This document shows, piece by piece, positions 690 through 12,860 of a stretch of 12,860 nucleotides of DNA (positions within the stretch are counted from its first letter, which is position 1; every line of letters starts with the position of its first letter). The notes under the pieces are model-generated. The model searched no databases and had not been told where the DNA came from. It saw nothing but the letters and a program-made list of their open reading frames with translations. A program made the translations under genes and the position numbers. This stretch comes from an uncultured Clostridia bacterium (GTDB lineage Bacteria; Acidobacteriota; Blastocatellia; Chloracidobacteriales; JADJPF01), in the NCBI GenBank assembly GCA_964536575.1, contig CAZHXL010000176.1, positions 1 through 12,860 on the forward strand. Reading direction: 5' to 3'.

Positions 690-1283
690 ATGAGTCAAGG
701 TCAAAGTCAAAGCCAAAGTCAAGCAATAATGATTCGTGCCAATGTAGACAAACAAGATATTAATATCTGTAGGTTTATAGCTGATCGTCCTTTAACTAAC
801 GGTTCACTAGTATTTACTAGCAAAGCCGAAGCTAAAGGAAATAGTTTGGCAGAAAATCTTTTCAGCCTTCCAGAAATTAAAAAAGTAGAAATTAATGACA
901 CTACTTTAACACTAGTAAAAAGCCTAGGGGACGACTGGTCAGTATTAGGAAAGCGAATTGGTGGTTTTATTCGCACTTTTCTACAACCAGAAGCCTATGC
1001 TAACGCACTCCCATCAGAAGAGCTTAAAAAGAAAGTTCAAGAAGTATTAGACTTACAGATTAATCCTAGCGTAGCTTCTCACGGTGGGTTTGTAGATTTA
1101 ATTGCAGTAGAAAACAACAATGTTTACATACGTATGGGTGGAGGCTGTCAGGGTTGTGGCGCAGCCAATATGACCCTAAAAATGGGAATTGAGCGAACGA
1201 TTCGTGAAGCTATTCCTAGTATTGGTCAAATTCTAGATTCGACTGATCATGCTAGTGGTAATAATCCTTACTATTCTAAGTAG
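690..1283 (+). CDS. Nfu/NifU-like Fe-S cluster scaffold/carrier (N-terminal Nfu_N-like domain plus C-terminal NifU domain with CXXC)
   Basis: The C-terminal half reads INPSVASHGGFVDLIAVENNNVYIRMGGGCQGCGAANMTLKMGIERTIRE, the classic NifU_C/Nfu CXXC cluster-binding motif. The N-terminal half resembles the Nfu_N fold pattern (..F.......SPLAENLF.LPEIKKV....TLTLVK....W). GGAGG at 673-677 lies 12 nt upstream of the ATG. The N-terminus carries a (QS)n low-complexity run. Confidence 0.85.
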   Translation: MSQGQSQSQSQAIMIRANVDKQDINICRFIADRPLTNGSLVFTSKAEAKGNSLAENLFSLPEIKKVEINDTTLTLVKSLGDDWSVLGKRIGGFIRTFLQPEAYANALPSEELKKKVQEVLDLQINPSVASHGGFVDLIAVENNNVYIRMGGGCQGCGAANMTLKMGIERTIREAIPSIGQILDSTDHASGNNPYYSK

Positions 1284-1298
1284 TTGATGGTTTAACTT

Positions 1299-1919
1299 AT
1301 GGAGCTTTGTTTTAGAAAAGCCACGCCAGAAGATACTTCAGCCTGTGTTGATTTGGTCTATAGTTCTGGGCCAGAGCTATTAGAGTATATGTTTTCTATT
1401 GGCAATAAAACCGCTAAAGACTACATAACTTATGAGTTTCAAGAAGGCGGAGGCTTTATTGGTCACCGTATTCATACAGTAGTTGAGCATAAATCAGCTA
1501 TTGTTGGTGTTGGGGCTTTTTATGATAAAAGACAGTTAATTAGACTCTATTTAGGAAGCCTAAGAAATATCATTAGATTTTATGGCTTACTTGGGTCTTT
1601 TGAAGTGCTAAAAAACGCGCTTCATTCAAGCTCTGTAATTGAAAAACCTCCTCCTAAAACGATGTATATTTGTAATCTTGGAGTTAGTCCTAAAAGTAGA
1701 GGGTTAGGTGTTGGTTCAGCTTTGATTAAATATGAAACTGAAAAAGCCTCTAAGAATGGCTACAAGGATATAAGCCTTGATGTAGCAACAAACAACCCAA
1801 AAGCAGAGAGCCTTTATCAAAGATTAGGGTTTAAGCTAGTAAGAGAAAAAGTATTTCGAGGTAAAAAAGGTGCAAAAATACCAGGAACTAGATTTTTAGT
1901 ACTTCCTATAAGCTCATAA
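1299..1919 (+). CDS. GNAT family N-acetyltransferase, substrate unknown
   Basis: N-terminus is typical for the family (FRKATPEDTSACVDLVY). Acetyl-CoA binding motif A-like segment ICNLGVSPKSRGLGVGSALIKY (R/Q-x-x-G-x-G/A), followed by A..LYQRLGFK. Starts 15 nt after the Nfu stop with no clear SD, so possibly translationally coupled. Confidence 0.8.
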   Translation: MELCFRKATPEDTSACVDLVYSSGPELLEYMFSIGNKTAKDYITYEFQEGGGFIGHRIHTVVEHKSAIVGVGAFYDKRQLIRLYLGSLRNIIRFYGLLGSFEVLKNALHSSSVIEKPPPKTMYICNLGVSPKSRGLGVGSALIKYETEKASKNGYKDISLDVATNNPKAESLYQRLGFKLVREKVFRGKKGAKIPGTRFLVLPISS

Positions 1920-1979: not shown

Positions 1980-3812
1980 ATGTCGGAAATATCTGAGAAA
2001 AATGATAGCCCTAGACCCAAACGTTTAGGGCTATCGCTTTCTGGTGGTGGGTTTCGCGCTTCGTTCTTTCATATTGGTGTGCTAGCAAAAATGGCGGAAC
2101 TTGGACTACTTAGGTATGTAGAAGTTATATCTACGGTTTCTGGTGGAGCAATCATTGGCACACTTTATTATCTTCACTTAAAAAAACTTCTAGAAAACAA
2201 GTCTGATAGCCAAGTTTTAGATAGTGATTACTGTCAAATTTTACAAGAAATAACAGAAGATTTTCTTAAAGCTGTCCAAAGCAATATTATTATGACAGCT
2301 TATAATAACCCTCTAAAAACTATTAAAATGGCTTTGGACAATTATTCTTCTAGTTTGCGACTTGCTGAGCTTTACGAGCAATATTTTTACCGGCCTGTAT
2401 TTAATCCTAATGAAACAGCCCCAATCAAAATGTCGGAGCTAAAAATTATGCCTAAAGGAGATTTAGACTTTTATCCTCTAGAACATAATATTCATCGTAG
2501 TGCTAAAGTCCCTATTCTTTTAATCAATACAACTTCACTAAACACTGGGCGTAATTGGTATTTTGAAGCAACTCATATGGGTGAAGCACCTCGTGAAAGC
2601 ATAGCCTCACAGGAAATTGATAAAAACCTGCGCCTAGCTAGACCTAATTCATATGACTTACTAGATAAAGAACATGAAGATTTTTTACTAAGCCATGCAG
2701 TAGCAGCTTCAGCAGCTTTACCAGCAGTTTTTGCCCCTATAAAAATTTCTCACCTATACCCAAACGAAATAGACCTACGATTAGTAGATGGCGGAGTACA
2801 CGATAATCAAGGAATTGAAGGACTACTAAACTTTGATTGTACAGACTTTATAATCAGTGATGCTTCACGCCCCTTGGAATTTGAGGCTAAACCAAATATT
2901 GGTAATGAAGGATTATTACTTAGGGTAAGAAGTATTTTAGGTGATCGTCTACGTGAAGAGCAAATTTACCGAATGCTAGAAGGAAAGTATAAAAATCATA
3001 CTGCTTTTATGCATTTACGAAAAAATTTTTCTATTATAAAACAAGGCTATTTAACCTCTGCCAGTAAAGCTAAAAAAGTAAAACCATTAACTTCTATTAG
3101 TGACTTTACCTTGTCAAATTGCGACATAGGGATTGCCCCAGAAGTACAACAATCGCTAGCTCGTATTCGTACTCACTTAGACTCTTTTACTGATCTAGAG
3201 GCTTATTCTTTGATGTTTTATGGCTATCAAGTAAGTCAGCAAGTGATCTTAAAAACCCCTAACCTCAACCAAATTACTAAACAACCACCACTTAATCTTA
3301 ATTGGCAGTTCCTTAAAATAGCTCCTTGGGCTAAACAACCTACCCTTAATTACTTGCACCAACTAAAAGTAGGTAGCGAGAGATTCTTAAAAATATTTCA
3401 ACTTAACCCGCTAGTAAAAAGAATTAGTCTATTGGTCTTATTTTTAATTTTTCTGTTAATAGTTTGGTGCCTTTTTTCTTTCTTAAGTATTTTGTCGAGC
3501 ATTAATGAAGTTCAAGAATTACTCGCTATCCCACTAAACCAAGTTATTTCAATATTTAGTCCAATAGTCATAGTTCTTTTTTTATTAAGGGTTGTTTTTG
3601 CTCGACGATATTCACTAATGAGAGAACAGTGGTTTAATTTTTGGGCAAAAGCCTTATTACCAGCTTTATGTTTTCCTCTTGTTTGGTTACACCTGCTTTT
3701 CTACGACAAATTATTCTTAAAAGCTGGCCAGCTTGATCAATTAGAAAAGCCTCTTTATCAAAATGATCTTGATTCATTAACAAGCGTAGATCGACAGCTA
3801 GAAAGTCAATAA
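1980..3812 (+). CDS. Patatin-like phospholipase domain protein with a C-terminal three-helix membrane anchor
   Basis: Oxyanion motif GLSLSGGGFRASFFHIGVL (G22-G-G-x-R26). Nucleophile elbow TVSGG (Ser54, nt 2139-2141), where the first Gly of GXSXG is Thr. Catalytic Asp in LVDGGVHDNQG (D270, nt 2787-2789). Hydrophobic stretches at about aa 482-507, 522-541 and 556-575. GAAGG lies 5 nt upstream of the ATG. Confidence 0.85.
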   Translation: MSEISEKNDSPRPKRLGLSLSGGGFRASFFHIGVLAKMAELGLLRYVEVISTVSGGAIIGTLYYLHLKKLLENKSDSQVLDSDYCQILQEITEDFLKAVQSNIIMTAYNNPLKTIKMALDNYSSSLRLAELYEQYFYRPVFNPNETAPIKMSELKIMPKGDLDFYPLEHNIHRSAKVPILLINTTSLNTGRNWYFEATHMGEAPRESIASQEIDKNLRLARPNSYDLLDKEHEDFLLSHAVAASAALPAVFAPIKISHLYPNEIDLRLVDGGVHDNQGIEGLLNFDCTDFIISDASRPLEFEAKPNIGNEGLLLRVRSILGDRLREEQIYRMLEGKYKNHTAFMHLRKNFSIIKQGYLTSASKAKKVKPLTSISDFTLSNCDIGIAPEVQQSLARIRTHLDSFTDLEAYSLMFYGYQVSQQVILKTPNLNQITKQPPLNLNWQFLKIAPWAKQPTLNYLHQLKVGSERFLKIFQLNPLVKRISLLVLFLIFLLIVWCLFSFLSILSSINEVQELLAIPLNQVISIFSPIVIVLFLLRVVFARRYSLMREQWFNFWAKALLPALCFPLVWLHLLFYDKLFLKAGQLDQLEKPLYQNDLDSLTSVDRQLESQ

Positions 3813-3819
3813 TTGACAA

Positions 3820-3838
3820 TTTGTGTCTTTTTGATACA
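3820..3838. repeat. Copy 1 of a perfect 19-nt direct repeat TTTGTGTCTTTTTGATACA, a candidate operator
   Basis: Identical to 3925-3943. It begins 2 nt after a perfect TTGACA hexamer (3813-3818) and overlaps a weak -10-like TACAAA (3835-3840, 16-nt spacer). It contains the imperfect dyad TGTGTC-N5-GATACA. Confidence 0.7.
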
Positions 3839-3862
3839 AATTTCTTCTATTAGCCCGCTAGT

Positions 3863-3881
3863 GTGAGTCTTATTGACTCAC
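3863..3881. other. Perfect 7-bp inverted repeat GTGAGTC-TTATT-GACTCAC between the two 19-nt repeat copies
   Basis: 3863-3869 pairs with 3875-3881 across a 5-nt loop. There is no adjacent U-tract on either strand, so it is not a classical intrinsic terminator. Confidence 0.4.
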
Positions 3882-3924
3882 TAAAAAGTATTACTATCTA
3901 CATTTAGAAGGTATTCCCATTCGG

Positions 3925-3943
3925 TTTGTGTCTTTTTGATACA
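3925..3943. repeat. Copy 2 of the 19-nt direct repeat TTTGTGTCTTTTTGATACA
   Basis: Identical to 3820-3838, with start-to-start spacing of exactly 105 bp. In this copy the flank completes a perfect dyad TTGTGT-N9-ACACAA (3926-3946). Confidence 0.7.
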
Positions 3944-4070
3944 CAAGGACGTTTTACAGAAAAATACCAATTGGTTTCATATTTCTAACTTGTTGTAAAC
4001 GCTATAGATAACATTATTCTCATGTCTGGCATAATTTTTGCTTACGACCAGTAGTGAAGCACACCTGGCA

Positions 4071-4242: not shown

Positions 4243-5349
4243 ATGATAAATAGTAAGACTTACGCTGCTTGCCAAAGAAAAGTACGGGAACTAAAGTTTA
4301 TTGCTAAAGGACTTGCTTCTACTAGTCATCCACTAGTTGCTCATATCATCCCAATCCGTAAGTGTAACTTGTCATGTGTTTATTGCAATGAATATGACAA
4401 TTATTCTAAAGGAATTGCTTTGGAAACAATGAAACAGCGTATTGACCACCTAGTAAAGCTAGGGTTGTCAGCGTTGGTTTTTAGCGGTGGTGAGCCACTT
4501 TTGCACCCAAATCTAGACGAGCTAATTTCTCACGCTCGCAGTTCTGGACTTTTAGTCGGCCTAATTACTAATGGTTACTTGATAGTGCCAGAACGTATTA
4601 AACGTCTAAACAAAGCTGGTTTAGACTATATGCAAATCAGCATTGATAATATTCAACCAGATGAGATTTCTGTTAAAAGCTTAAAAGTACTTGATAAAAA
4701 GCTACAAATGCTTAAAGAGCATGCTGATTTTGCTGTAAATATTAATTCTGTTATTGGTGGTGGCATTCGTAACCCTGAAGATGCTTTAGTAATTGGCAAT
4801 CGAGCTGTAGAGCTAGGGTTTTCTACTACTATAGGCATTATTCATGATGGTAACGGTCAACTAGGAAAGCTTAACGAAGTAGAACAAACTGTATTCAAAC
4901 AGTTACGAGACCTAGGTAAAAGCAGCTATGCTCGTTTTAACCGATTCCAAGATAACCTAGCTACAGGTCAAGCGAATGATTGGCGTTGTCGTGCAGGTAG
5001 TCGTTATCTCTACATATGCGAAGAAGGTTTAGTACACTATTGTTCTCAACGCCGTGGTTATCCTGGAGTAAACCTACTTTCATACACCACTAAAGATATA
5101 ATTCGTGAATTTAATACTAAGAAAGACTGTGCAGACTATTGTACAGTAGCCTGTGTCCATAAAGTGGCAGTAATGGATAACTGGCGTTCTGCTCCTCAAT
5201 TATTAGCAGACCCAGAAAATCTAATGTTATCTCCAGGTAGGTTAATTGCTGAAGAATTAAAGCTAATACCTTTAAAGTCTAAAAAATTAGCCCCTCAACC
5301 TGTGGTAACACAAAAAACAGAACAAGAACAACTAGTAAGTGCTCAGTAA
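4243..5349 (+). CDS. Radical SAM enzyme with a twitch/SPASM-like Cys-rich C-terminal domain, function unknown
   Basis: CX3CX2C at C41/C45/C48 (IRKCNLSCVYCNEY, nt 4363-4386). GGEPLL glycine-rich SAM motif (SGGEPLLHP) and ITNGYL. C-terminal C249-X9-C259-X2-G-X4-C267 and C296-X3-C300-X3-C304. No room for an N-terminal B12 domain. An in-frame TGA at 4231-4233 fixes ATG 4243 as the first possible start. AAGGAG at 4221-4226 is 16 nt upstream, which is long. Confidence 0.85.
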   Translation: MINSKTYAACQRKVRELKFIAKGLASTSHPLVAHIIPIRKCNLSCVYCNEYDNYSKGIALETMKQRIDHLVKLGLSALVFSGGEPLLHPNLDELISHARSSGLLVGLITNGYLIVPERIKRLNKAGLDYMQISIDNIQPDEISVKSLKVLDKKLQMLKEHADFAVNINSVIGGGIRNPEDALVIGNRAVELGFSTTIGIIHDGNGQLGKLNEVEQTVFKQLRDLGKSSYARFNRFQDNLATGQANDWRCRAGSRYLYICEEGLVHYCSQRRGYPGVNLLSYTTKDIIREFNTKKDCADYCTVACVHKVAVMDNWRSAPQLLADPENLMLSPGRLIAEELKLIPLKSKKLAPQPVVTQKTEQEQLVSAQ

Positions 5350-5468
5350 TATTTTTAATAAATTTTTATTTAAGCCCCATTTTGTGAGGGTAAGTTGCTA
5401 GGTAAGCAAATTAATAGAAAATTAGTTAATGCGACTAAATAAGTCACTGTAAGGAGAATAGTAAAAAC

Positions 5469-7508
5469 ATGTCGTTGAAGAAAATGGTAGAAAAGGGATT
5501 AAGCGTAGTTGCCGGTAAAGCCTTTAATGGAATTCAAAAATTTAACCAATTTAGACCAAATGCATCATTTACCCCAAACTGGTCTGAAAAACCAATGTTA
5601 AAGTCCTGGCAAAAATCTAAACCTGTACTAGGGTGGCCACGAACAACAGATTCTCTTTGTCCCAAGTGCGTTATTGAAGCTCGTAATCAAATCATTAATG
5701 GTGAGAAAGATTACCGAATGCTTATCAATGAGCAAGTTGGAGAAGTAAAAGCCCAAATTGTTGAGCGTGATGGACAAGTTTGGATGGTAAAAGAATGCCA
5801 TATTCACGGTAAATGCGAAGATATAATGGCAATGGATACCAAGTTCCTTGAACACATTGAAAAAATGTTCCCAGGCCGCGACATTGCAGCACATAACGAC
5901 GAAAAACTACACAATCATGGTAGCAGTACAATTAAGCATGGTCGTGGTGCAGTATTAACTGTAGACCTTACAAATCGATGCAATATGATGTGTGATCCTT
6001 GCTTTATGGACGCAAACCAAGTGGGTTTTGTACATGAGCTAAATTTTGACGATATTAAAGAAGTCCTAGATAATGCAATGCAAATCAAACCACGTCGTCA
6101 AATGTCAGTTCAATTTTCGGGCGGCGAACCAACAATGTCACCCTATTTCTTTGATGCTATTCGTTATGCTAGAAAAGTTGGTTATAACAGTGTTCAAGCT
6201 GCCACTAACGGAATTGAATTTGCCAAAGATATGAACTATGCCAGAAAAGCCGCCGAAGCTGGCTTGCGCTATGTTTATCTTCAATTTGATGGTATTGGTA
6301 ATGATGCTAATAGCCATCGTCAGATTGGCAACCTCTTTGATGTTAAACTCAAAGCTATCAATAATATTCATGCTGCTGGTATTGAAATTGTTCTAGTCAC
6401 TACCCTAGTTAATGGTGTAAATAATGACCAAGTAGGTAGAATTATTGAGTTTGCATTACAAAACCCCAAAAAGATTGCTTTCTTGGCCTTCCAACCTGTT
6501 TCTTTTACAGGCCGTGACGAAGAAATTACCGATGAACGTCGTATGCGTCAACGTTACACTCTTTCTCATTTAGCTCATGATGTAAAAAACCAAATGAGTT
6601 TAACTGAGCCAACTCGTGATTGGTTTCCTCTTTCATTAATGAGTTCTTTTGCCGATTTTGCTGACCTATCCCACGGCCCTAAAGCTGAATGGGGACAAGT
6701 AAGCTGCGGTTGTCACCCAAATTGTGGTGTAGGAACAGCTTTAATGATCAACAAAGAAACAAAAGAAATGGCTCCTGTGCCTCAATTCTTAAATATCCCT
6801 GGCCTAGTCAAAGACATGACTCATATCACAGACGCTGCTCGCAGTAAATGGATGTCTAACCTTATGATGGGATTGGCTTTACTGAAAAACTACAACCCTT
6901 ATGGTGCTCCTAAGAGCTTTTCATTAGCAGCAATGTTTAAGAAATTTGACAAGTCATTTGGGTTAACTGGTAAAAGCTATGGTAAAGTTTCTGGCGATCG
7001 TAGTCGCGAAGATATCGAGAAACGTCGTAGTGATCCTTGGAACTTCCTCTTTGTTGCTGGTATGTGGTTTCAAGACTTGTTTAACTATGATTTCCGCCGT
7101 ACAGAAATGTGTATTATTCCTTACGGTACACAAGAGGGTGAAATTTCTTTCTGTGCTTATAACACTGGGGTTGGTTGGAGAAATATCATTGAAAATATGC
7201 ACCAAAACGCTACTGTAGGCAAATGGTATAAAGAATATGGAAAACACGAAGTCTATGCTAACAATAGAAATGTTAACTTAAATTCTTTTGAACATGGCTT
7301 AGTGGTTAATGATGAAGCGGCTAATGCGATACGTGATCGTGATAAAACCAAACCAATGAATGCTAGAGAAGAAGCTAGAATGATGAAAAAACTTTATCAA
7401 CAAAGCGTACTCAAGCAAGTTGGTCAACCAGAACAAACCGAAGGAAAACTCTTACAGCTTGGCATTAAACGCGCCAAAAAGAATGCTCCTACTAGTGTAG
7501 GCGATTAA
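5469..7508 (+). CDS. Large radical SAM enzyme with Tes / GDGT-MAS (MJ0619, COG1964)-like architecture: N-terminal Cys/His metal site, radical SAM core and a C-terminal auxiliary Cys cluster
   Basis: CPKC (C64, C67; nt 5658-5669) plus ECHIHGKC (C110, H111, H113, C116) precede CX3CX2C at C171/C175/C178 (TNRCNMMCDPCFM, nt 5979-6002). FSGGEPT SAM motif. Later cluster SCGCHPNCG (C413, C415, C419; starting nt 6705), C548, and ISFCAYNTG (C562). Lys/Glu-rich tail of about 100 aa. AAGGAG at 5451-5456 is 12 nt upstream of the ATG. The radical SAM call is firm. The Tes-like assignment rests on remembered family hallmarks only. Confidence 0.8.
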   Translation: MSLKKMVEKGLSVVAGKAFNGIQKFNQFRPNASFTPNWSEKPMLKSWQKSKPVLGWPRTTDSLCPKCVIEARNQIINGEKDYRMLINEQVGEVKAQIVERDGQVWMVKECHIHGKCEDIMAMDTKFLEHIEKMFPGRDIAAHNDEKLHNHGSSTIKHGRGAVLTVDLTNRCNMMCDPCFMDANQVGFVHELNFDDIKEVLDNAMQIKPRRQMSVQFSGGEPTMSPYFFDAIRYARKVGYNSVQAATNGIEFAKDMNYARKAAEAGLRYVYLQFDGIGNDANSHRQIGNLFDVKLKAINNIHAAGIEIVLVTTLVNGVNNDQVGRIIEFALQNPKKIAFLAFQPVSFTGRDEEITDERRMRQRYTLSHLAHDVKNQMSLTEPTRDWFPLSLMSSFADFADLSHGPKAEWGQVSCGCHPNCGVGTALMINKETKEMAPVPQFLNIPGLVKDMTHITDAARSKWMSNLMMGLALLKNYNPYGAPKSFSLAAMFKKFDKSFGLTGKSYGKVSGDRSREDIEKRRSDPWNFLFVAGMWFQDLFNYDFRRTEMCIIPYGTQEGEISFCAYNTGVGWRNIIENMHQNATVGKWYKEYGKHEVYANNRNVNLNSFEHGLVVNDEAANAIRDRDKTKPMNAREEARMMKKLYQQSVLKQVGQPEQTEGKLLQLGIKRAKKNAPTSVGD

Positions 7509-7531
7509 TTTTATAGAGCAAATCAAAATAT

Positions 7532-7572
7532 TTAACCCAGATTAACAAGTTTAATATGTTGATCTGGGTTAA
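7532..7572. terminator. Bidirectional intrinsic-terminator-like hairpin between convergent genes
   Basis: TTAACCCAGATTAACA (7532-7547) pairs with TGTTGATCTGGGTTAA (7557-7572). That gives 16 bp with one T:G position (7543:7561) and a 9-nt loop. On the plus strand it is followed by GTGTTTATAGATCTTTTG and on the minus strand by ATATTTTGATTTG. It sits between the stop at 7506-7508 (+) and the stop at 7612-7614 (-). Confidence 0.6.
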
Positions 7573-7611
7573 GTGTTTATAGATCTTTTGCAAAATATTC
7601 TTTAAGATTAA

Positions 7612-10203
7612 CTATCCCTTAGGGATGCTCTTGGCTGCTGGTGCATCCTTCATTGGTAAAGAATAACGTCGTATTCCATCAAACTTATAAAGTGCTCCTG
7701 CGACGGCGTCTGATGTTCGTACAAGGCCGATTTCCCCTACTCCTTTGGCACCAAATGGGCCTTGTGGGTCATATTCTTCAACAAAAATCAACTCACACTC
7801 TGGCATATCTTTAGCCCTAAGCAGTCCTAATGAGCGAATATTTGTATTAGGAAGCTTGCTGTCAACTACTTTAAGTTCTTCACTTAAGGCATAGCCCAGT
7901 CCCATATGAATAGAGCCTTCTATTTGACCTTCTAATAATTTTGGATTAAGCACTTTACCAACATCATGTGCTGCAACCACTTTTTTAAGCTTGCCTTTGT
8001 CATCCAAAATCACAACTTGAGTAGCAAAACCATAAGAAAAATGAGTGATTGTTTTTTCTACCTTAGCGTTTAGGGCGGTAGTGAAATCCACTACATGCTC
8101 ACCATAATATTCTTTTCCAATTAATTCTTCTAATGTGTGATTCTGTAAGTCTTCCTTAAGCTTTTGTGCAGCAATCCGAACAGCATTTCCACCAAGCGAA
8201 GTAGCCCTAGATGCTGTAGTCATACCGCAATAAAGCGGCTTAGATGTATCAACAACGGCTCGAACCCTACGAGGATCAACCCCTGTTTCTTCACATAAAC
8301 ACTGGATTAAAACTGTATAAAGCCCTTGTCCCATTTCAGTAAAACCTTGGTTAATGGTCACAGTCGCATCTTTTTCCACTACCAGTAAAACCCTACCATA
8401 TTCAGGCATTCCATTGCCAATACCAACATTTTTAATCCCACAAGCAATGCCTGCATATTTAGCATTTTGGTAGGCATCTTTAACTGCTAGTAGGGTTTTC
8501 TTAAGCCCTACGCTATGTTCAAACACTTGTCCTGTAGCAAAAGTGTCTCCAACATCAACAGCATTACGGTAGCGAATTTCCCAGCCATCCAAGCCAATTT
8601 TTTCTGCTAGCTGGTCTAAGGCGCCTTCTAGGGCAAAAGCCGCTTGGTTAGCACCAAAACCCCGCATTGCTCCACAAGGAGGGTTATTTGTGTAAACAGC
8701 TAAAGCCTCAACATCAACATTATCAACACGATAAGGGCCGCAAGAATGACCAGCAGCACGCTCTAACACTTTTGACCCTACTGAGGCATAAGCACCTTTA
8801 TCACCAATCATTTTAGCTTTTACTCCTAAAAGCCTTCCCTCATTATCACAACCAACCCAATATTCCATCTTGATTGGGTGACGTTTAGGATGCAAGCAAA
8901 TGCTTTCATCACGCGAAATTGTGATTTTTACTGGTCGATTGGTCATTAACGCGAGTAAAGCCGTTTGACCTTGAATGCTCAAATCCTCTTTACCACCAAA
9001 CGCTCCACCATTTGAAACTAGAGTGACTATAACTTTTTCTTCAGAAACATTTAGGAAAGATGCGATTTGACGACGATCATCAAACACCCCTTGACCTTGG
9101 CTATAGACATGCATTGCACCTTCGTCTTTAGGAACAGCAATACAGCTTTCTGGCTCAAGGAAAGCGTGTTCAATAAGTTGAGTTGACCAAGTATGATTAA
9201 CTACGTGAGGCGCGTTTTTCAAAGCTTCATCAGCATCACCACGTTTGATTAGCGATGTAGAAAGCAAGTTTCCTTTTTTATGAATTTTAGGTGCGTCAGA
9301 AGCAAGTGCCGCTTCGGGTGAGCTTACAGGCTGTAAAACTTCATAGCGAACATCTATTAGTTCTAATGCTTTACGGGCTAGTTTAGGTGTGGTAGCAGCA
9401 ACAGCAGCAATAACATCTCCAACAAAACGAGTTTCTTCACCCTCTGCCACAAATAGTGGCCAATCAGGATATATTAACCCTTGAAAGCGTTGTCCTGGAA
9501 CGTCTTTAGCCGTAGCAACCGCCATAACTCCATCAATGTCTAAGGCTCTAGCAGGGTCTACAGAAAGCACTTTAGCACGAGGGTGAGGAGAAAAAAGTAG
9601 TGCTCCATAAAGCATATCTGGCATTTTCATATCGTCAATATAAGGGCGATCCCCTAGTACAGCTTCACAGCCATCATAACGAGGTAGGCTTGTGCCAATC
9701 AGCCCAGAAAAATCTTGCTCTGGTAGTGGCTCTCCCTGCAAGGCTTTTGCTGCTAACTCAATAGAATCAATAATTTTAGTGTAACCAGTACAGCGACAAA
9801 TATGAGGGTTAAGTACGCCAGTAATTTCCTCTCTAGTAGGATTAGGTTTTTTATCTAGCATATTTTTTGCGCGTGCCACAATACCGGGAATACAAAAACC
9901 ACATTGCAACCCACCACCAAGCACAAAAGCTTTAGAGAAAATATCCCGCTCACGCTCGCTTACACCTTCTAAAGTAAGCACCGTTTTCCCTGCCACTTTT
10001 TCAGCGTTTACCACACAAGAAACCGTTGCACGATTATCAACAATCACAGTGCAGCATCCGCATTGACCTTGAGGGCTACAACCATTCTTAGGAGAAATTA
10101 GCCCAAACTCTTCTCGCAACAGGTCTAAAAGCGTAGTGTCATGGTCGATTTGGGCGTTAACCAAATTGCCATTAAGAGTAAATTCTACTGTTTTTATACT
10201 CAT
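7612..10203 (-). CDS. Molybdopterin-dependent hydroxylase of the xanthine dehydrogenase/aldehyde oxidoreductase family, with two [2Fe-2S] domains fused to the MoCo domain and no FAD domain (MOP/XdhD-like)
   Basis: N-terminal plant-type 2Fe-2S motif GCSPQGQCGCCTV...SC (C42, C48, C51, C63). Second cluster QCGFCIPG...CRCTGY (C101, C104, C136, C138). MoCo-domain signatures GGAFGGKE, AMRGFGANQ and the C-terminal GAKGVGEIG catalytic-Glu region. Strong AGGAGG about 9 nt upstream of the ATG at 10203-10201. Confidence 0.9.
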   Translation of the reverse strand: MSIKTVEFTLNGNLVNAQIDHDTTLLDLLREEFGLISPKNGCSPQGQCGCCTVIVDNRATVSCVVNAEKVAGKTVLTLEGVSERERDIFSKAFVLGGGLQCGFCIPGIVARAKNMLDKKPNPTREEITGVLNPHICRCTGYTKIIDSIELAAKALQGEPLPEQDFSGLIGTSLPRYDGCEAVLGDRPYIDDMKMPDMLYGALLFSPHPRAKVLSVDPARALDIDGVMAVATAKDVPGQRFQGLIYPDWPLFVAEGEETRFVGDVIAAVAATTPKLARKALELIDVRYEVLQPVSSPEAALASDAPKIHKKGNLLSTSLIKRGDADEALKNAPHVVNHTWSTQLIEHAFLEPESCIAVPKDEGAMHVYSQGQGVFDDRRQIASFLNVSEEKVIVTLVSNGGAFGGKEDLSIQGQTALLALMTNRPVKITISRDESICLHPKRHPIKMEYWVGCDNEGRLLGVKAKMIGDKGAYASVGSKVLERAAGHSCGPYRVDNVDVEALAVYTNNPPCGAMRGFGANQAAFALEGALDQLAEKIGLDGWEIRYRNAVDVGDTFATGQVFEHSVGLKKTLLAVKDAYQNAKYAGIACGIKNVGIGNGMPEYGRVLLVVEKDATVTINQGFTEMGQGLYTVLIQCLCEETGVDPRRVRAVVDTSKPLYCGMTTASRATSLGGNAVRIAAQKLKEDLQNHTLEELIGKEYYGEHVVDFTTALNAKVEKTITHFSYGFATQVVILDDKGKLKKVVAAHDVGKVLNPKLLEGQIEGSIHMGLGYALSEELKVVDSKLPNTNIRSLGLLRAKDMPECELIFVEEYDPQGPFGAKGVGEIGLVRTSDAVAGALYKFDGIRRYSLPMKDAPAAKSIPKG

Positions 10204-10277
10204 CTAATTTTTCCTCCTAAAATGTATGTGAAGAATAGGCAAACCTTGTAAGAGTAGACACATAGGTCTGCCCGCCC

Positions 10278-11885
10278 TTACATTACCACATGTTTTCGTA
10301 CAATTTTACCAGGAAATCTTCCCTGTTCTTGATTATGTTTAATTACTGCTACACCTTGAACTATTACATGCTCAATACCTGTCGGATACTGGCGAGGATT
10401 GCTAAAAGTAGCATTGTCAATCACTGTCGCAGGATTAAAGGCTACTAGGTTGGCAATGTAACCTTCTTTAACTAGACCATAGCCGGTTAAACCTAAGTTT
10501 TGTGCTGCTAAATGGCTGAGTTTATAAATAGCTTGCTCTAGATTTAATATACCTAAATCGCGTGTATAACGCCCTAAAATCCTAGGATAAGTCCCAAAAG
10601 CGCGTGGATGCGGTCTAGCACCTAGTAACCCATCAGTACAAGCATTAACATAGGGTAATTGCCAAATTCTTTGCACTACGTCTTCTGACTGACTAAAGGA
10701 AATCATTGAAACGCCCATTCGCTCTTCTAGAAGCAAGTCAAAGGCAAATTCTACTGGATCTTTTTCTCGCAGTTTAGCAGCATCAGCGACACTTAAACCC
10801 ACTATATCTTGGTTTTTTCCTGAAGGGATATCAGAAATAATAATGCCTTCTGGGCCTGACCATTTCCAAAAATTATCCCACTCTGCCCGATCAGCATTAA
10901 GAATTTGAGTACGCATTTTTTCTCTGTCTACAAGATTGGCTAGCCTCCTTAAAGTAGCCTCTATACCACCAGCATGTGTCCAAGGAGGCAAAATTGCTCC
11001 CATCATTGTAGATCCTGCTACGTAAGGATATTGATCAGCAGTAAACTTTAGCCCTTCAGCTTGTGCTTGGGTTATCCGACGCAAAACCTCGTCGACTTGT
11101 GCCCAATTTTCTTTTCCTGCTGCCTTAAAGTGAGAAATATGGACATGCACGCCACTACCACGAGCAATGTCTATCATTTCCTGGATGCCTTCAACTAAGT
11201 AGTCGCTTTCGCTACGAATATGAACAACTAAACGTCCATCTAATTCTGCAACTTTACGGCATAAATAAATTAATTCATCTGTGTTGCTATAACAGCACGG
11301 AGGGTAAATTAGTCCTGTAGAAAGCCCAAAAGCCCCTTCACGCATACCTGTTTCTAGTAACTTGGTCATTTCTTCGCGTTCAGTAAGGGTTGAGTCACGA
11401 TCCTCCATGCCCATTACCCAAAGCCTTAACGCACCATGTGGAATAAGATAAGAACAGTCTACACCAGGTTTTGCTTGTTCTAGGGCTAATAAATACTCAG
11501 CCACAGATTGCCATGGCCAAGGTCGCCCTAATGTACCAAGTAGCCCAGCAAGTTGCTTTCCTGATTGTTCTTTGTGTTCTTCTTTAACAGGAGCAACAGA
11601 AATTCCATCTTGGCCAAAAATTTCTAGGGTGATACCTTGACGAACTTTCATAAAAAGCGAAGGATCATTAAGCACTTTTAAGTCTGAGTGGCTATGGGTA
11701 TCAATAAATCCTGGTGCGACAACTAACCTTTGGCAATCAATCTCCTCAGTTGCTTTTAGCTTTCCTGTAGGAGCAATCGCAACTATTAGGTTATCAGACA
11801 CACCTACATCAGCAATAAAACGTTCTTGACCAGAACCATCTATTACAGTACCACCTCGCAAGACCAAGGTTAATTCTTTAGCCAT
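10278..11885 (-). CDS. Metal-dependent amidohydrolase, N-acyl-D-amino-acid deacylase (D-aminoacylase, Amidohydro_3)-like
   Basis: N-terminus LRGGTVIDGSG....DVGVSD..I.AI.........EIDC..LVVAPGFIDTHSHSD is the hallmark of the D-aminoacylase subgroup. The ORF track starts at a TTG (11891). I prefer the ATG at 11885-11883 because AAGGA (11897-11893) is then 7 nt upstream (6 nt if only the AGGA core is counted), whereas it abuts the TTG directly. Confidence 0.8.
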   Translation of the reverse strand: MAKELTLVLRGGTVIDGSGQERFIADVGVSDNLIVAIAPTGKLKATEEIDCQRLVVAPGFIDTHSHSDLKVLNDPSLFMKVRQGITLEIFGQDGISVAPVKEEHKEQSGKQLAGLLGTLGRPWPWQSVAEYLLALEQAKPGVDCSYLIPHGALRLWVMGMEDRDSTLTEREEMTKLLETGMREGAFGLSTGLIYPPCCYSNTDELIYLCRKVAELDGRLVVHIRSESDYLVEGIQEMIDIARGSGVHVHISHFKAAGKENWAQVDEVLRRITQAQAEGLKFTADQYPYVAGSTMMGAILPPWTHAGGIEATLRRLANLVDREKMRTQILNADRAEWDNFWKWSGPEGIIISDIPSGKNQDIVGLSVADAAKLREKDPVEFAFDLLLEERMGVSMISFSQSEDVVQRIWQLPYVNACTDGLLGARPHPRAFGTYPRILGRYTRDLGILNLEQAIYKLSHLAAQNLGLTGYGLVKEGYIANLVAFNPATVIDNATFSNPRQYPTGIEHVIVQGVAVIKHNQEQGRFPGKIVRKHVVM

Positions 11886-11912
11886 TTCCAATCCTTTTTA
11901 AAAGTTTTTGAC

Positions 11913-11976
11913 CTGGGAGCGCAGGCATCTTGCCTGCATTTTTTTAGATATGCGGACGAGACGTCCGCGCTCCCAG
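11913..11976. repeat. GC-rich composite palindromic (REP/MITE-like) element: an outer 8-10 bp stem enclosing two different 7-bp hairpins
   Basis: Outer arms are CTGGGAGC(GC) at 11913-11922 and (GC)GCTCCCAG at 11967-11976. Hairpin A is GCAGGCA-TCT-TGCCTGC (11921-11937). Hairpin B is GCGGACG-AGA-CGTCCGC (11952-11968). The A/T-rich linker is ATTTTTTTAGATAT. It lies in the 99-nt gap between stop 11985-11987 and start 11885 of two co-oriented minus-strand genes. Confidence 0.75.
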
Positions 11977-11984
11977 TCATTAAT

Positions 11985-12860
11985 CTATCTTTTCACGCGT
12001 GAAATATCATCATAGAGTTCTGGTCTACGATCACGGTAAAATTGCCATTGAATACGAACATCTTGGATCATACCTAGGTCTAGGTCTGCTACTACTAATT
12101 CGTCTTTATCCCGGCTAGCCTGTGCCATAATTTTACCGCGTGGGTTACAGAAATAGCTTTTACCGTAAAACTCGCCTATATCCCAAGGTTTTTCATGACC
12201 TACACGGTTGATAGTGCCAACAAAATAACCATTAGCAACTGCATGTGAGGTTTGTTCTAATTCCCAGAGATATTCAGAGTGTCCTGCAACAGTAGCAGAA
12301 GGAATAAACACAACCTCTGCACCATTTAACCCTAAGACACGAGCACCTTCTGGGAAATGACGATCATAACAAATATAAACCCCTACTCTACCAAAAGCTG
12401 TGTCAAAAACAGGGTAACCTAGGTTTCCTGGAGTAAAATAGAATTTCTCCCAAAAACCGGGTAAACAATGTGGGATATGTGTTTTCCGATATTTTCCTAG
12501 ATATTTTCCATCAGCATCAATTACAGCAGCAGTGTTGTAATAAACACCTGTCATATCTTCTTCATAAATTGGTACGACTATAACCATTTGGTGTTTTTTT
12601 GCCAATTCCATCATTAGTTGAGTAGTGGGGCCGTCTGGAATGCGTTCTGTTGTACCATACCAACGAGGGTTTTGCTCAGCACAAAAGTATGGGCCATAAA
12701 AAATTTCTTGTAGACAAAGCATTTGTACACCTTGACTTGCAGCTTGTTCAATCATAGGTAGGTGTTTATCAATCATTGCTTGTTTTATTACTTCTAAAGG
12801 TTGATCAGAAGCAGTAGGATTACTAGCTTGAATTAAACCGCATTTAACAATTCGAGGCAT
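11985..12860 (-). CDS. Carbon-nitrogen hydrolase (nitrilase superfamily), beta-ureidopropionase / N-carbamoyl-amino-acid amidohydrolase-like
   Basis: Catalytic triad context: CLQEIF (E52), YRKTHIP (K126), VYICYDRHFPE (C164). The overall pattern resembles beta-alanine synthase-type carbamoylases. The ATG occupies the last three bases of the window (12860-12858), so the RBS and any longer N-terminus cannot be assessed. MPRIVKCGLIQ looks like a genuine N-terminus. Confidence 0.8.
   Translation of the reverse strand: MPRIVKCGLIQASNPTASDQPLEVIKQAMIDKHLPMIEQAASQGVQMLCLQEIFYGPYFCAEQNPRWYGTTERIPDGPTTQLMMELAKKHQMVIVVPIYEEDMTGVYYNTAAVIDADGKYLGKYRKTHIPHCLPGFWEKFYFTPGNLGYPVFDTAFGRVGVYICYDRHFPEGARVLGLNGAEVVFIPSATVAGHSEYLWELEQTSHAVANGYFVGTINRVGHEKPWDIGEFYGKSYFCNPRGKIMAQASRDKDELVVADLDLGMIQDVRIQWQFYRDRRPELYDDISRVKR

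What the first reader, a model, noticed from the sequence alone, without database searches (positions are those of the whole stretch)
4243..5349. Partner twitch/SPASM-like radical SAM forming a stand-alone two-gene unit, with no precursor peptide in sight
Seen in the sequence:
- The 368-aa radical SAM (C41/C45/C48) has six extra C-terminal Cys residues arranged as C249-X9-C259-X2-G-X4-C267 and C296-X3-C300-X3-C304. This fits the CX9-15GX4C part of the SPASM/twitch signature.
- It lies 119 nt upstream of the large Tes-like radical SAM on the same strand, with no terminator between them.
- The pair is bracketed by a 430-bp leader upstream and a hairpin terminator (7532-7572) downstream, so it looks like an autonomous bicistronic unit.
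- I translated the flanking non-coding DNA by eye. It contains only tiny ORFs of 3-15 codons with no SD, for example MSGIIFAYDQ at 4022-4054.

Inference: SPASM/twitch enzymes usually act on peptides (RiPPs) or cofactors. With no obvious peptide substrate, and paired with a lipid-synthase-like enzyme, this gene may be an accessory tailoring enzyme on the same non-peptide substrate, performing cross-linking, cyclisation or desaturation. Radical SAM enzymes are known to tailor archaeal GDGTs in this way. I do not know of a characterised system made of this pair.
Basis: partly seen in the sequence, partly recalled or inferred. Interest (0 to 1): 0.7.

Follow-up and report, generated by a model that had tools for sequence, protein, structure and literature searches.

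The report
Orphan radical SAM beside lipid synthase
This gene encodes an iron-sulfur "radical SAM" enzyme of an unstudied family found throughout soil Acidobacteria; here it sits next to a relative of the archaeal membrane-spanning-lipid synthase, which makes it a testable candidate for a missing step in bacterial membrane-lipid (brGDGT-type) synthesis.

Summary
A 368-aa radical SAM (rSAM) gene lies at 4243-5349 with the reported Cys pattern. It sits 119 nt upstream of a 679-aa Tes-like rSAM, has a 430-nt leader and a strong hairpin after the pair, and has no conserved peptide gene nearby.

It is not a RiPP maturase and not MoaA, PqqE, AhbD/Gms or HpnH. It belongs to an uncharacterised Twitch-type family that is 55-65% identical across the acidobacterial lineages sampled. 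All six C-terminal Cys are invariant in the 34 aligned orthologues.

The pairing with Tes-like is real but occurs in a minority of lineages:
- About 9 of about 117 orthologue loci have it, in four arrangements and with changing flanks.
- One locus is a five-gene row: Ger/PlsA-like, Tes-like, rSAM, B12-type rSAM, this gene.
- Most orthologues stand alone, often just downstream of a LolA-like gene.

Relatives of about 40% identity in Proteobacteria sit among inositol-phospholipid, glycosyltransferase, sugar-deacetylase and lipid-export genes. Some family members are fused to GT2 or DedA domains.

Best reading: an envelope-lipid tailoring enzyme. It more likely acts at the polar end of the lipid than on the alkyl chain. 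Its function remains unproven.

The leader carries a conserved sigma-54 promoter with two upstream dyads.

The parts
3820..3838 (+). Dyad box 1, TTTGTGTCTTTTTGATACA (core TGTGTC-N5-GATACA); putative enhancer-binding-protein site
   Evidence: It is an exact direct repeat of the copy at 3925-3943. It is near-invariant in L007, L008 and L009. In L138, two dyads about 103 nt apart lie upstream of the same gene pair. A pattern search gave 2 sites (4 matches, both strands, <= 2 mismatches) against 0.69 matches expected by chance. Its function is inferred.
3863..3881 (+). Perfect palindrome GTGAGTC-N5-GACTCAC between the two dyad boxes
   Evidence: Both arms are kept in the four aligned leaders; L009 has one change in the 3' arm. 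The site overlaps repeat D1 copy 2. Its role is unknown.
3925..3943 (+). Dyad box 2, identical to box 1 and 105 nt downstream of it
4027..4042 (+). Sigma-54-type -24/-12 promoter element TGGCATAATTTTTGCT, about 200 nt upstream of the start codon
   Evidence: It is the only match to TGGCAY-N5-TTGCW in the 12.9-kb window; 0.04 matches are expected by chance. The TGGCAT and TTGCT parts are invariant in the L007, L008 and L009 leaders. A one-mismatch version lies upstream of the pair in L138. Promoter activity is inferred, not shown.
4243..5349 (+). Small radical SAM enzyme (368 aa) with a Twitch-like C-terminal Fe-S domain: the feature under study
   Evidence: PF04055 hit, 75.8 bits. The CX3CX2C motif and six C-terminal Cys are invariant in orthologues. 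The model has pLDDT 71 and pTM 0.76, with a beta-hairpin at 255-259/263-266 between C249 and C267. A family profile aligns into the SPASM/Twitch domains of PqqE, SkfB and CteB.
5350..5468 (+). 119-nt intergenic spacer with no terminator and no significant structure
   Evidence: The same spacer is about 110-240 nt in L007, L008, L009, L070 and L138.
5469..7508 (+). Tes-like radical SAM (679 aa), a homologue of the archaeal tetraether lipid synthase GDGT-MAS
   Evidence: NF045702 Tes scores 326 bits over profile positions 2-483 of 486, below the 450 cut-off. PF23545 Zn-ribbon scores 44.6 bits. Against the M. jannaschii GDGT-MAS structure 7TOL: E = 1.3e-60, residues 92-566 aligned to 35-494.
7526..7578 (.). 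Long hairpin between the convergent Tes-like and xanthine-dehydrogenase genes; likely a terminator serving both
   Evidence: 22-bp stem, z = -6.55. The simple terminator scan missed it because the loop is longer than 8 nt.
1980..3812 (+). Patatin-like phospholipase (610 aa), conserved upstream neighbour in the window's own clade only
   Evidence: PF01734 hit. Synteny is kept in L007, L008 and L009. It is absent next to the pair in L138, L070, L017 and L019. Membership of the system is uncertain.
690..1283 (+). NifU/Nfu-type Fe-S scaffold protein, conserved two to three genes upstream in the window's clade
   Evidence: PF01106 and PF08712 hits. Kept in L007, L008 and L009. It may supply Fe-S clusters; this is inference only.

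Best explanation
The gene encodes an active radical SAM enzyme with one Twitch-type auxiliary Fe-S domain. It belongs to an uncharacterised family that is highly conserved in Acidobacteriota. It does not mature a peptide.

It most likely tailors an envelope lipid. In this lineage it is probably transcribed from a sigma-54 promoter together with the Tes-like enzyme, so the two probably act in one membrane-spanning or ether lipid pathway.

Proposed mechanism, all inferred:
- The CX3CX2C cluster cleaves SAM to a 5'-deoxyadenosyl radical.
- That radical abstracts a hydrogen from the lipid substrate.
- The auxiliary cluster (C249, C267, C296, C300, plus C259 and/or C304) accepts or returns an electron, or anchors the substrate.

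I favour a site at the polar end of the lipid (a lipid-linked amino sugar, cyclitol or glycerol) over the alkyl chain. Candidate reactions are oxidation, dehydration or a carbocycle-forming ring contraction. The logic would follow glycosyltransferase, then de-N-acetylase, then rSAM, as in HpnI/HpnK/HpnJ, and resembles calditol synthase acting on GDGTs.

What is shown: the family, the motifs, the conservation and the genomic associations. What is inferred: co-transcription, the substrate and the reaction.
For: **Functional rSAM with a Twitch-like domain**
-.
- The C-terminal domain of the L017 paralogue passes PF13186. That paralogue aligns with this protein at 25% identity over 318 aa, including the Cys motifs.

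**Not a RiPP enzyme**
- No conserved small ORF next to 111 loci.
- Identity is 55-65% across the acidobacterial lineages sampled, in varied contexts.

**Linkage to Tes-like, with flanks that change**
- Window, L007, L008, L009: patatin, small, Tes.
- L138: small then Tes, flanked by a GAF kinase and QueA.
- L070: small then Tes.
- L019 and L020: Tes then small.
- L017: Ger/PlsA-like (two BcrAD_BadFG domains plus DUF2229), Tes-like, a 438-aa rSAM, a B12-type rSAM, then the small rSAM. All are on one strand with gaps of 483, 119, 69 and 15 nt.
- L019 also has a Ger-like gene just upstream, with one small opposite-strand ORF between it and Tes-like.

**Membrane and head-group theme in relatives of about 35-45% identity**
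- Four of six distinct contexts (L126/L127, L128, L130/L131, L132) show a CDP-alcohol phosphatidyltransferase, inositol-1-P synthase, IPCT-like transferase or GT4 beside the gene. L132 also has a PIG-L deacetylase.
- L136 and L137 both have a PF01522 deacetylase directly downstream (overlapping the rSAM gene in L136), plus GT4 and a CDP-alcohol transferase.
- LptFG or MMPL exporters are nearby.
- Fusions exist to a PpgS-like GT2, to a VTT/DedA membrane domain and to a methyltransferase.

**Acidobacterial neighbours**
- LolA or LolA-like directly upstream in 19 loci.
- An HDAC-type deacetylase directly downstream in 7 loci.
- In L001/L009, an HpnK-like YdjC deacetylase, an ArnC-like GT2 and a PMT-type glycosyltransferase lie 4-8 kb upstream, and an OlsE-like lipid hydroxylase lies downstream.

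**Closest solved proteins and regulation**
- The closest solved proteins by sequence include the sugar- and nucleotide-modifying rSAMs BlsE, AbmM, viperin, MoaA and DesII.
- The sigma-54 promoter and dyads are conserved upstream of the pair.
Against: - Only about 9 of about 117 orthologue loci have Tes-like nearby. In an NJ tree, eight of them fall into two clades of one Blastocatellia-related branch. L138 was not in that tree. Independent events are therefore few.
- Most acidobacterial orthologues show no lipid-synthesis neighbour at all.
- Head-group evidence comes mainly from Proteobacterial relatives of about 40% identity, which may have a different substrate. Acidobacterial loci lack GT4, PI-synthase or MIPS neighbours.
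- In L017 the gene sits in a row of rSAMs that resembles the archaeal tail-tailoring sets (Tes, Gms, Gmm/Grs).
- Profile matches to PqqE, SkfB and CteB are as good as those to the sugar enzymes.
- The model is of moderate quality (pLDDT 71), and its coordinates could not be inspected for a lipid tunnel.
- There are no expression or biochemical data.
- The Tes-like partner is itself below the curated Tes cut-off, and no bacterial Tes homologue has been shown to be active (PMC13459092, PMC11868695).
Confidence: 0.55

Rival explanations
1. It is an alkyl-chain tailoring enzyme. It would act on the hydrocarbon part of the lipid handled by Tes-like. Possible reactions are tail-to-tail coupling of iso-C15 chains (the iso-diabolic acid synthase still missing for Acidobacteria), chain-to-chain cross-linking as in brGMGTs, cyclopentane formation, or desaturation. 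The auxiliary cluster would hold the first radical intermediate, as proposed for Tes.
For: - It is adjacent to Tes-like in several arrangements.
- In L017 it ends a row of Tes-like, SPASM-type rSAM and B12-type rSAM genes, which resembles the archaeal Tes/Gms/Gmm sets (PMC11214058).
- Orthologues were found in Terriglobales, Bryobacterales and Blastocatellia. These correspond to subdivisions 1, 3 and 4, which make iso-diabolic acid. Mss is absent from Acidobacteria and Tes homologues were detected in only 3 of 14 producer genomes (PMC13159169).
- A conserved auxiliary cluster is available.
Against: - The protein is small (341 aa in most Acidobacteria). It has no extra hydrophobic or lipid-binding domain such as the N-terminal extension of Gms or the pockets of Tes.
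- Family members in Proteobacteria, which are not known (to my knowledge) to make such lipids, sit with head-group genes.
- Known tail methylases, ring synthases and desaturases are B12-type rSAMs (10.1101/2025.10.20.683597), and this protein is not one.
Confidence: 0.22
2. It is a conserved enzyme of some other pathway, for example cofactor, nucleotide-sugar or cell-envelope glycan metabolism. Its proximity to Tes-like in a few related lineages would then be inherited synteny without functional meaning.
For: - About 92% of orthologue loci lack Tes-like nearby.
- Very high conservation and a single gene in varied contexts are typical of core metabolism.
- Commoner neighbours are Lol-type genes, pyruvate kinase, ThiL and adenosine deaminase.
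- In the NJ tree, the Tes-adjacent loci included fall in only two clades.
Against: - The pair stays together while gene order and flanks change.
- The 15-nt spacing inside the L017 lipid gene row argues against chance.
- Ger-like genes lie beside the pair in two loci.
- Fusions to membrane and glycolipid enzymes exist.
- No curated cofactor family matches.
Confidence: 0.15
3. It is a maturase or helper of the Tes-like enzyme or of another protein. It would install a post-translational modification, as anSME-type SPASM/Twitch enzymes do, or assist cluster or electron supply, rather than act on a lipid.
For: - SPASM/Twitch enzymes include protein-modifying maturases.
- Profile matches to SkfB, CteB, PqqE and anSME.
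- A NifU-type scaffold gene is conserved nearby in the window's clade.
Against: - Most genomes keep the gene far from Tes-like.
- Proteobacterial relatives sit in lipid head-group clusters where no Tes-like gene was seen in the DNA held.
- No RRE/PqqD-type recognition domain was detected.
- No conserved peptide gene lies nearby.
Confidence: 0.08

Closest known systems
Gms (GMGT synthase), a SPASM/Twitch rSAM that cross-links GDGT chains; its bacterial homologues cluster with tes or mss (PMC11214058)
   Same: Both are SPASM/Twitch-class rSAMs. Both are encoded next to a Tes homologue in Acidobacteria. Neither has a peptide substrate, and both are lipid-pathway accessories.
   Different: - Gms is an AhbD homologue (36% identity, E = 7e-79 to AhbD). 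It is at least 400 aa in the published screen and has a roughly 100-aa N-terminal lipid-binding extension.
- This protein is 341-368 aa, and its rSAM motif starts at residue 41.
- It matches the AhbD model only over about 100 N-terminal residues: 62.7 bits against a cut-off of 500.
- It is therefore a different family.
Tes / GDGT-MAS (tetraether synthase; PDB 7TOL)
   Same: The partner gene at 5469-7508 is a full-length homologue (E = 1.3e-60). The small protein shares only the generic rSAM core with Tes (36 bits).
   Different: The small protein lacks the Zn-ribbon or rubredoxin-like domain, the N-terminal cluster domain and the C-terminal domain of Tes. The partner itself scores 326 against the 450 curated cut-off and carries a C-terminal extension of about 100 aa.
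HpnI/HpnK/HpnJ (BHT cyclitol ether pathway) and Cds (calditol synthase): rSAMs proposed to ring-contract a lipid-linked hexose (PMC13459092)
   Same: - The genomic logic of glycosyltransferase, de-N-acetylase and rSAM recurs around family members: GT4 with PIG-L, GT4 with PF01522, GT2 fusions, and an HpnK-like YdjC near L001.
- Cds is an rSAM head-group enzyme of an organism whose lipids are made by Tes.
   Different: - HpnJ is recalled as a B12-domain rSAM (my own knowledge). No B12-binding domain is detected here, and HpnJ is not among the 25 NCBIfam hits shown out of 66.
- No cyclitol lipid is known from these organisms, to my knowledge.
Twitch or Twitch-like small-molecule rSAMs: BlsE, AbmM, viperin, MoaA, SpeY, BtrN-type dehydrogenases
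   Same: These are the best sequence and fold matches: BlsE at E = 2e-21 with the family profile, and Foldseek TM about 0.5. They share a similar size, a single C-terminal auxiliary region and sugar, nucleotide or cyclitol substrates.
   Different: Identity is below 22% and confined mostly to the core. The pattern CX17C...CX3CX3C and its conservation are specific to this family. The genomic context is membrane lipid, not antibiotic or cofactor synthesis.
Mss (bacterial membrane-spanning lipid synthase; PMC13159169)
   Same: It is an rSAM that makes (iso-)diabolic acids, the chemistry expected in Acidobacteria.
   Different: Published searches found no Mss homologues in Acidobacteria. Mss is reported to share the catalytic architecture of Tes (PMC13274423), unlike this small protein.

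Membership tests
Radical SAM superfamily | CX3CX2C cluster motif and a SAM-binding core (PF04055) | tested here: met
   C41/C45/C48 are invariant. The GGEP motif at 82-85 is invariant in orthologues. PF04055 scores 75.8 bits against a cut-off of 29.5.
SPASM/Twitch subfamily | C-terminal domain with a beta-hairpin flanked by Cys (CX9-15GX4C) that carries an auxiliary Fe-S cluster | tested here: met
   C249-X12-G262-X4-C267 is present and conserved. The model places strands at 255-259 and 263-266. The family profile aligns through this region with PqqE, SkfB and CteB. Cluster binding itself cannot be tested here.
SPASM/Twitch subfamily | Match to the Pfam SPASM model PF13186 | tested here: not met
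   There is no hit for the whole protein or for the C-terminal domain alone at E <= 10. Only the L017 paralogue passes, with 25 bits against 21.5, over the first 40 of 67 profile positions.
Full SPASM (two auxiliary clusters) | Seven-to-eight-Cys pattern including CX2CX5CX3C plus a distal Cys | tested here: not met
   The second motif is CX3CX3C, and there are six Cys in total. The wider family keeps four invariant Cys plus C304 (at least 90%) or C259. This fits a single-cluster Twitch better.
RiPP maturase (PqqE, sactisynthase, etc.) | Adjacent precursor peptide gene, and an RRE/PqqD recognition domain | tested here: not met
   No small ORF is conserved across 111 loci. No RRE or PqqD domain is detected. 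PqqE scores 71 against a cut-off of 381.
Gms (GMGT synthase) | Close AhbD homologue, at least 400 aa, with a roughly 100-aa N-terminal lipid-binding extension (PMC11214058) | tested here: not met
   The protein is 368 aa (341 in most orthologues). The rSAM motif starts at residue 41. The AhbD model scores 62.7 bits against 500, over residues 39-137 only. No direct comparison with a Gms sequence was possible.
MoaA / NirJ-AhbC/D / HpnH / viperin / BlsE equivalogs | Score above the curated NCBIfam cut-off | tested here: not met
   All score 42-72 bits against cut-offs of 180-650, and the matches are confined to the N-terminal half.
Tes (applies to the partner gene 5469-7508) | Full-length homology to GDGT-MAS, with the N-terminal Zn-ribbon or rubredoxin-like domain and the rSAM core | tested here: met
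   7TOL: E = 1.3e-60 over residues 92-566. PF23545 scores 44.6 bits. C171/C175/C178 are present.
Tes (applies to the partner gene 5469-7508) | Score above the curated equivalog cut-off (NF045702, 450 bits); demonstrated coupling activity | tested here: not met
   It scores 326 bits. Activity cannot be tested here, and no bacterial Tes homologue has been confirmed (PMC11868695, PMC13459092).
Mss and Cds | Sequence homology to the characterised enzymes | not testable with these tools
   The reference sequences could not be obtained, and the Cds paper is not held. The literature reports no Mss homologues in Acidobacteria (PMC13159169).

The most novel reading that the evidence does not exclude
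This family is a missing, Acidobacteria-wide enzyme of the iso-diabolic acid / brGDGT lipid pathway. One possibility is a Cds/HpnJ-like enzyme that builds an unusual, hydrolysis-resistant polar head group on the membrane-spanning lipids. The other is the chain-coupling or chain-tailoring step that Mss and Tes homologues fail to explain in most Acidobacteria. Its Proteobacterial relatives would then define a new rSAM step in the synthesis of bacterial glycosyl-inositol-phospholipids.
Probability: 0.25. Interest if true: 0.85.

Novelty: new variant of a known kind. Interest (0 to 1): 0.6.

Why it matters
Branched GDGTs are among the most widely used terrestrial palaeotemperature and pH proxies. 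Their biosynthesis in Acidobacteria is still unresolved:
- Mss is absent from the phylum.
- Tes homologues are patchy and unverified.
- The ether-forming, methylating and ring-forming enzymes are unknown (PMC13159169, PMC13274423).

This gene family is a concrete candidate. It is very highly conserved across the acidobacterial lineages sampled and matches no known enzyme. It repeatedly joins Tes-like and Ger-like genes.

The conserved sigma-54 promoter suggests conditional expression, which could be compared with the conditions that induce brGDGT production in culture.

The Proteobacterial branch points to an undescribed rSAM step in inositol or amino-sugar lipid synthesis.

If the gene proves unrelated to lipids, it is still one of the larger unassigned rSAM families in soil bacteria.

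Tried and rejected
**Rejected readings**
- RiPP system. There is no conserved small ORF and no Rfam match in the window.
- MoaA, PqqE, NirJ, AhbD, HpnH, viperin or BlsE identity. All are far below curated cut-offs.
- Gms identity. It fails on length, N-terminal extension and AhbD similarity (PMC11214058).
- The L017 438-aa rSAM as a Gms orthologue. Its AhbD score is only 53.6 bits, so this is unlikely but unproven.
- Inositol, GT4 or deacetylase genes as general neighbours of the acidobacterial orthologues. tblastn found only weak GT4 hits in 3 loci.
- A sigma-54 motif upstream of stand-alone small rSAM genes. Only 3 of about 108 have even a one-mismatch hit, so the regulation belongs to the paired clade.

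**Attempts that led nowhere**
- Foldseek against the PDB gave only generic rSAM matches with TM about 0.5.
- The metagenome scan with a diverse alignment returned only 55-64% identical acidobacterial loci, not distant relatives.
- The genome scan uses exact peptide words. Its 36 hits cannot establish presence or absence in other acidobacterial classes.
- The calditol synthase paper and sequence were not obtainable.
Full report
**1. What is in the window**

The window carries nine ORFs. On the + strand:
- a Uma2 nuclease gene (76-549)
- NifU/Nfu (690-1283)
- a GNAT acetyltransferase (1299-1919)
- a patatin-like phospholipase (1980-3812)
- the small radical SAM gene (4243-5349)
- a 679-aa Tes-like radical SAM gene (5469-7508)

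Three convergent genes lie on the - strand: a selenium-dependent xanthine dehydrogenase, an amidohydrolase and a carbon-nitrogen hydrolase.

G+C content is 33-44%. The closest relatives come from Acidobacteriota MAGs. L007, at 89% identity, is from a groundwater 'Acidobacteria bacterium'. L009, at 84%, is labelled Blastocatellia.

**2. The observation**

- Cys positions.
- The 119-nt spacer, without a terminator or significant structure.
- The 430-nt leader.
- A strong hairpin after the Tes-like gene: a 22-bp stem at 7526-7578, z = -6.55.

The six C-terminal Cys are invariant in 34 orthologues. In a wider alignment, C249, C267, C296 and C300 are invariant and C304 is kept in at least 90% of sequences. 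The sequences that lack C304 carry a Cys at position 259.

**3. The type of enzyme**

Pfam detects only Radical_SAM and Fer4_12. NCBIfam models (NirJ, PqqE, MoaA, AhbD, viperin, HpnH and others) match only the N-terminal half, at 40-72 bits. This is far below their cut-offs.

The C-terminal domain has no Pfam match, even when scanned alone. Three other lines place it in the SPASM/Twitch group:
- A profile of the family aligns through the first Cys pair with the SPASM/Twitch domains of PqqE, SkfB and CteB.
- The AlphaFold model (pLDDT 71, pTM 0.76) puts a beta-hairpin between C249 and C267.
- A paralogue in L017 aligns with this protein at 25% identity over 318 aa, including both Cys motifs, and its C-terminal domain passes PF13186.

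With four to six conserved Cys and a CX3CX3C second motif, 'Twitch-like, probably one auxiliary cluster' fits better than full SPASM. Foldseek gives only generic neighbours with TM about 0.5: viperin, AbmM, PqqE, BlsE and MoaA.

**4. Distribution**

The family is large. Among representatives clustered at 50% identity, 296 score E <= 1e-30, though many of those listed are fragments. In the 90%-identity collection, the 120 best hits shown are almost all 341-aa or 318-aa proteins at 61-68% identity.

All 36 genome loci are labelled Acidobacteriota, except two MAGs labelled 'Clostridia'. These are probably mislabelled. The classes represented are Blastocatellia, Pyrinomonadaceae, Bryobacterales and Terriglobales.

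Such conservation, in many different contexts, argues against a RiPP maturase. So does the absence of any conserved small ORF within 1.2 kb of 111 loci.

**5. Whether the pair is a unit**

From the side of the small gene, the genome scan found Tes-like within reach in six of 36 loci:
- L007, L008 and L009 have the window's order, with patatin and NifU upstream.
- L017, L019 and L020 have Tes-like first.

The metagenome scan found Tes-like nearby in one of 80 loci, L070.

L138, at 66% identity, keeps small then Tes-like between completely different flanks: a GAF histidine kinase and QueA.

Matching longest-contig lengths suggest four more co-located pairs in that clade: P0002/P0127, P0007/P0134, P0009/P0138 and P0010/P0140. 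I did not verify these.

In an NJ tree, the Tes-adjacent loci fall into two clades of one Blastocatellia-related branch. L138 was fetched after the tree was built.

From the Tes-like side, Pyrinomonadaceae homologues at 74-76% identity stand alone. Korobacteraceae small genes also stand alone.

The pairing therefore recurs and survives rearrangement, which argues for a functional link. It is still the exception: about 9 of about 117 loci.

**6. The strongest contextual evidence**

In L017, five genes lie on one strand with gaps of 483, 119, 69 and 15 nt:
- a 1206-aa protein with two BcrAD_BadFG domains plus DUF2229
- the Tes-like gene
- a 438-aa SPASM-type rSAM, which is a paralogue of the small gene
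- a 557-aa B12-domain-type rSAM
- the small gene

The first protein has the 'BBD' core that Sahonero-Canavesi et al. describe for the ether-forming Ger/PlsA enzymes (PMC13159169).

L019 has a Ger-like gene, one small opposite-strand ORF, then Tes-like and the small gene. These look like ether and membrane-spanning lipid gene clusters.

**7. Other neighbours in Acidobacteria**

Counted within 5 kb in 116 loci:
- LolA or a LolA-like protein directly upstream on the same strand: 19 loci
- a LolD/MacB-type ABC ATPase: 14 loci
- a MacB/FtsX-type permease: 7 loci
- an HDAC-family deacetylase directly downstream in Bryobacteraceae: 7 loci
- an acyl-CoA dehydrogenase: 8 loci

In L001/L009, a PMT-type glycosyltransferase, an HpnK-like YdjC deacetylase (180 bits against a cut-off of 233), an ArnC-like GT2 and a flippase-like protein lie 4-8 kb upstream. 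An OlsE-like lipid hydroxylase follows the Tes-like gene.

**8. More distant relatives**

These share about 35-45% identity with the window protein. Those with source names are labelled Acetobacteraceae, Rhodospirillales, other Alphaproteobacteria or Deltaproteobacteria; most carry no name. Their contexts:
- *Gluconacetobacter azotocaptans*: inositol-1-phosphate synthase, an IPCT-like nucleotidyltransferase and a PIP-synthase-like CDP-alcohol transferase, then LptFG, the rSAM and a GT4.
- A deltaproteobacterial MAG: CDP-alcohol transferase, the rSAM, then a DIPPS-like transferase. The gaps are 24 nt and a 4-nt overlap.
- L132: CDP-alcohol transferase, LptFG, GT4, a PIG-L deacetylase, then the rSAM.
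- L136 and L137: the rSAM followed directly by a PF01522 deacetylase, plus GT4 and a CDP-alcohol transferase. L136 also has MIPS and LptFG. L137 has an MMPL exporter.
- L130: the rSAM followed 22 nt later by a GT4.

Fusion proteins join family members to a PpgS-like polyprenyl-phosphate GT2, to a VTT/DedA membrane domain (53% identity to the window protein) and to a SAM methyltransferase.

The recurring set is glycosyltransferase, sugar de-N-acetylase (four different deacetylase folds) and rSAM. This is the logic of HpnI/HpnK/HpnJ in BHT cyclitol ether synthesis. It also recalls calditol synthase acting on GDGTs (PMC13459092).

For this reason I favour chemistry at the polar end of an envelope lipid. 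The inference crosses about 60% sequence divergence. The acidobacterial loci themselves lack GT4 and PI-synthase neighbours.

**9. Regulation**

The leader is conserved in L007, L008 and L009. It contains:
- two identical dyads, TGTGTC-N5-GATACA, at 3822-3838 and 3927-3943
- a perfect palindrome at 3863-3881
- TGGCATAATTTTTGCT at 4027-4042

The last element matches the sigma-54 -24/-12 consensus. It is the only such match in the window, with 0.04 expected by chance.

L138 has different flanks, yet it also carries two dyads about 103 nt apart and TGGCACGACATTTGCC upstream of the pair.

The leader is therefore best read as an enhancer-dependent promoter region followed by a 5' UTR of about 190 nt.

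Stand-alone Tes-like genes in Pyrinomonadaceae have one-mismatch sigma-54-like sites upstream. Stand-alone small genes mostly do not.

**10. Comparison with the literature**

- Tes homologues in bacteria are proposed, but not shown, to make brGDGT-type lipids (PMC8941075, PMC11868695, PMC13459092).
- Acidobacteria lack Mss. Under strict criteria they mostly lack Tes, so their iso-diabolic acid synthase is unknown (PMC13159169). This is still the case in 2026 (PMC13274423).
- Gms, a SPASM/Twitch rSAM, clusters with tes or mss in bacteria (PMC11214058). A Twitch-type partner of Tes is therefore not a new concept, but this protein fails the Gms criteria.
- The tail methylases, ring synthases and the desaturase described so far are B12-type rSAMs (10.1101/2025.10.20.683597).
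- I found no paper that describes this family.

**11. Verdict**

It is an uncharacterised Twitch-type rSAM family with good, though indirect, evidence for a role in envelope-lipid biosynthesis. In some lineages that role is linked to the Tes-like and Ger-like genes.

The exact reaction is open. My estimates are:
- about 0.55 that it is a lipid-tailoring enzyme acting more likely at the polar end
- about 0.22 for alkyl-chain chemistry
- about 0.15 for an unrelated core function
- about 0.08 for a protein-maturase role

Noticed in passing
window 3820-4042; L007, L008, L009 and L138 leaders: The leader has a conserved sigma-54-type promoter (TGGCATAATTTTTGCT, 4027-4042). Two identical TGTGTC-N5-GATACA dyads lie about 100 and 200 nt upstream of it, with a perfect palindrome (3863-3881) between them. 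The same layout precedes the gene pair in L138, although the flanking genes differ. The activator is unknown.
   Followed up: partly
L017 574-10972: Five genes lie in a row on one strand: Ger/PlsA-like (two BcrAD_BadFG domains plus DUF2229), Tes-like, a 438-aa SPASM-type rSAM with an N-terminal extension of about 100 aa, a 557-aa B12-domain-type rSAM, and the small rSAM. It looks like a candidate bacterial tetraether-lipid gene cluster. L019 has Ger-like, Tes-like and the small rSAM.
   Followed up: partly
L126/L127, L128, L130, L132, L136, L137: Proteobacterial relatives of the small rSAM (about 40% identity) sit in clusters with inositol-1-phosphate synthase, an IPCT-like transferase, PIP-synthase-like CDP-alcohol transferases, GT4 glycosyltransferases, PIG-L or PF01522 deacetylases, and LptFG or MMPL exporters. 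This suggests an undescribed rSAM step in glycosyl-inositol-phospholipid synthesis.
   Followed up: partly
L013, L103 and 17 other acidobacterial loci: The commonest neighbour of the stand-alone small rSAM is a LolA or LolA-like gene 120-200 nt upstream on the same strand. It is often preceded by LolD/MacB-type ABC transporter genes. In seven Bryobacteraceae loci an HDAC-family deacetylase follows 45-60 nt downstream.
   Followed up: partly
proteins P0244, P0282, P0287, P0334: Natural fusions join family members to a VTT/DedA membrane domain, to a PpgS-like GT2 glycosyltransferase (twice) and to a class I SAM methyltransferase.
   Followed up: partly
window 5469-7508; L043-L045: Besides Tes, the Tes-like protein also matches the NCBIfam model for the rSAM (seleno)protein TrsS (216 bits). 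It is about 75% identical across Blastocatellia and Pyrinomonadaceae. Stand-alone copies in Pyrinomonadaceae have AGGCAC/T-N5-TTGCT sites upstream, which may also be sigma-54 promoters.
   Followed up: partly
window 7612-12860 (- strand): A convergent gene set encodes a selenium-dependent xanthine dehydrogenase (TIGR03311, 1023 bits), an amidohydrolase and an N-carbamoylputrescine-amidase-like CN hydrolase. It is probably a purine or nitrogen catabolism unit unrelated to the finding.
   Followed up: no
L008 and L019 (record titles): Two MAGs labelled 'uncultured Clostridia bacterium' carry loci 84% and 60% identical to the acidobacterial gene, with acidobacterial-type synteny. The taxonomic labels are probably wrong.
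   Followed up: no
window 1299-1919: A GNAT acetyltransferase gene lies between NifU and patatin in the window and in L007. No match to it was found in L008 or L009.
   Followed up: no
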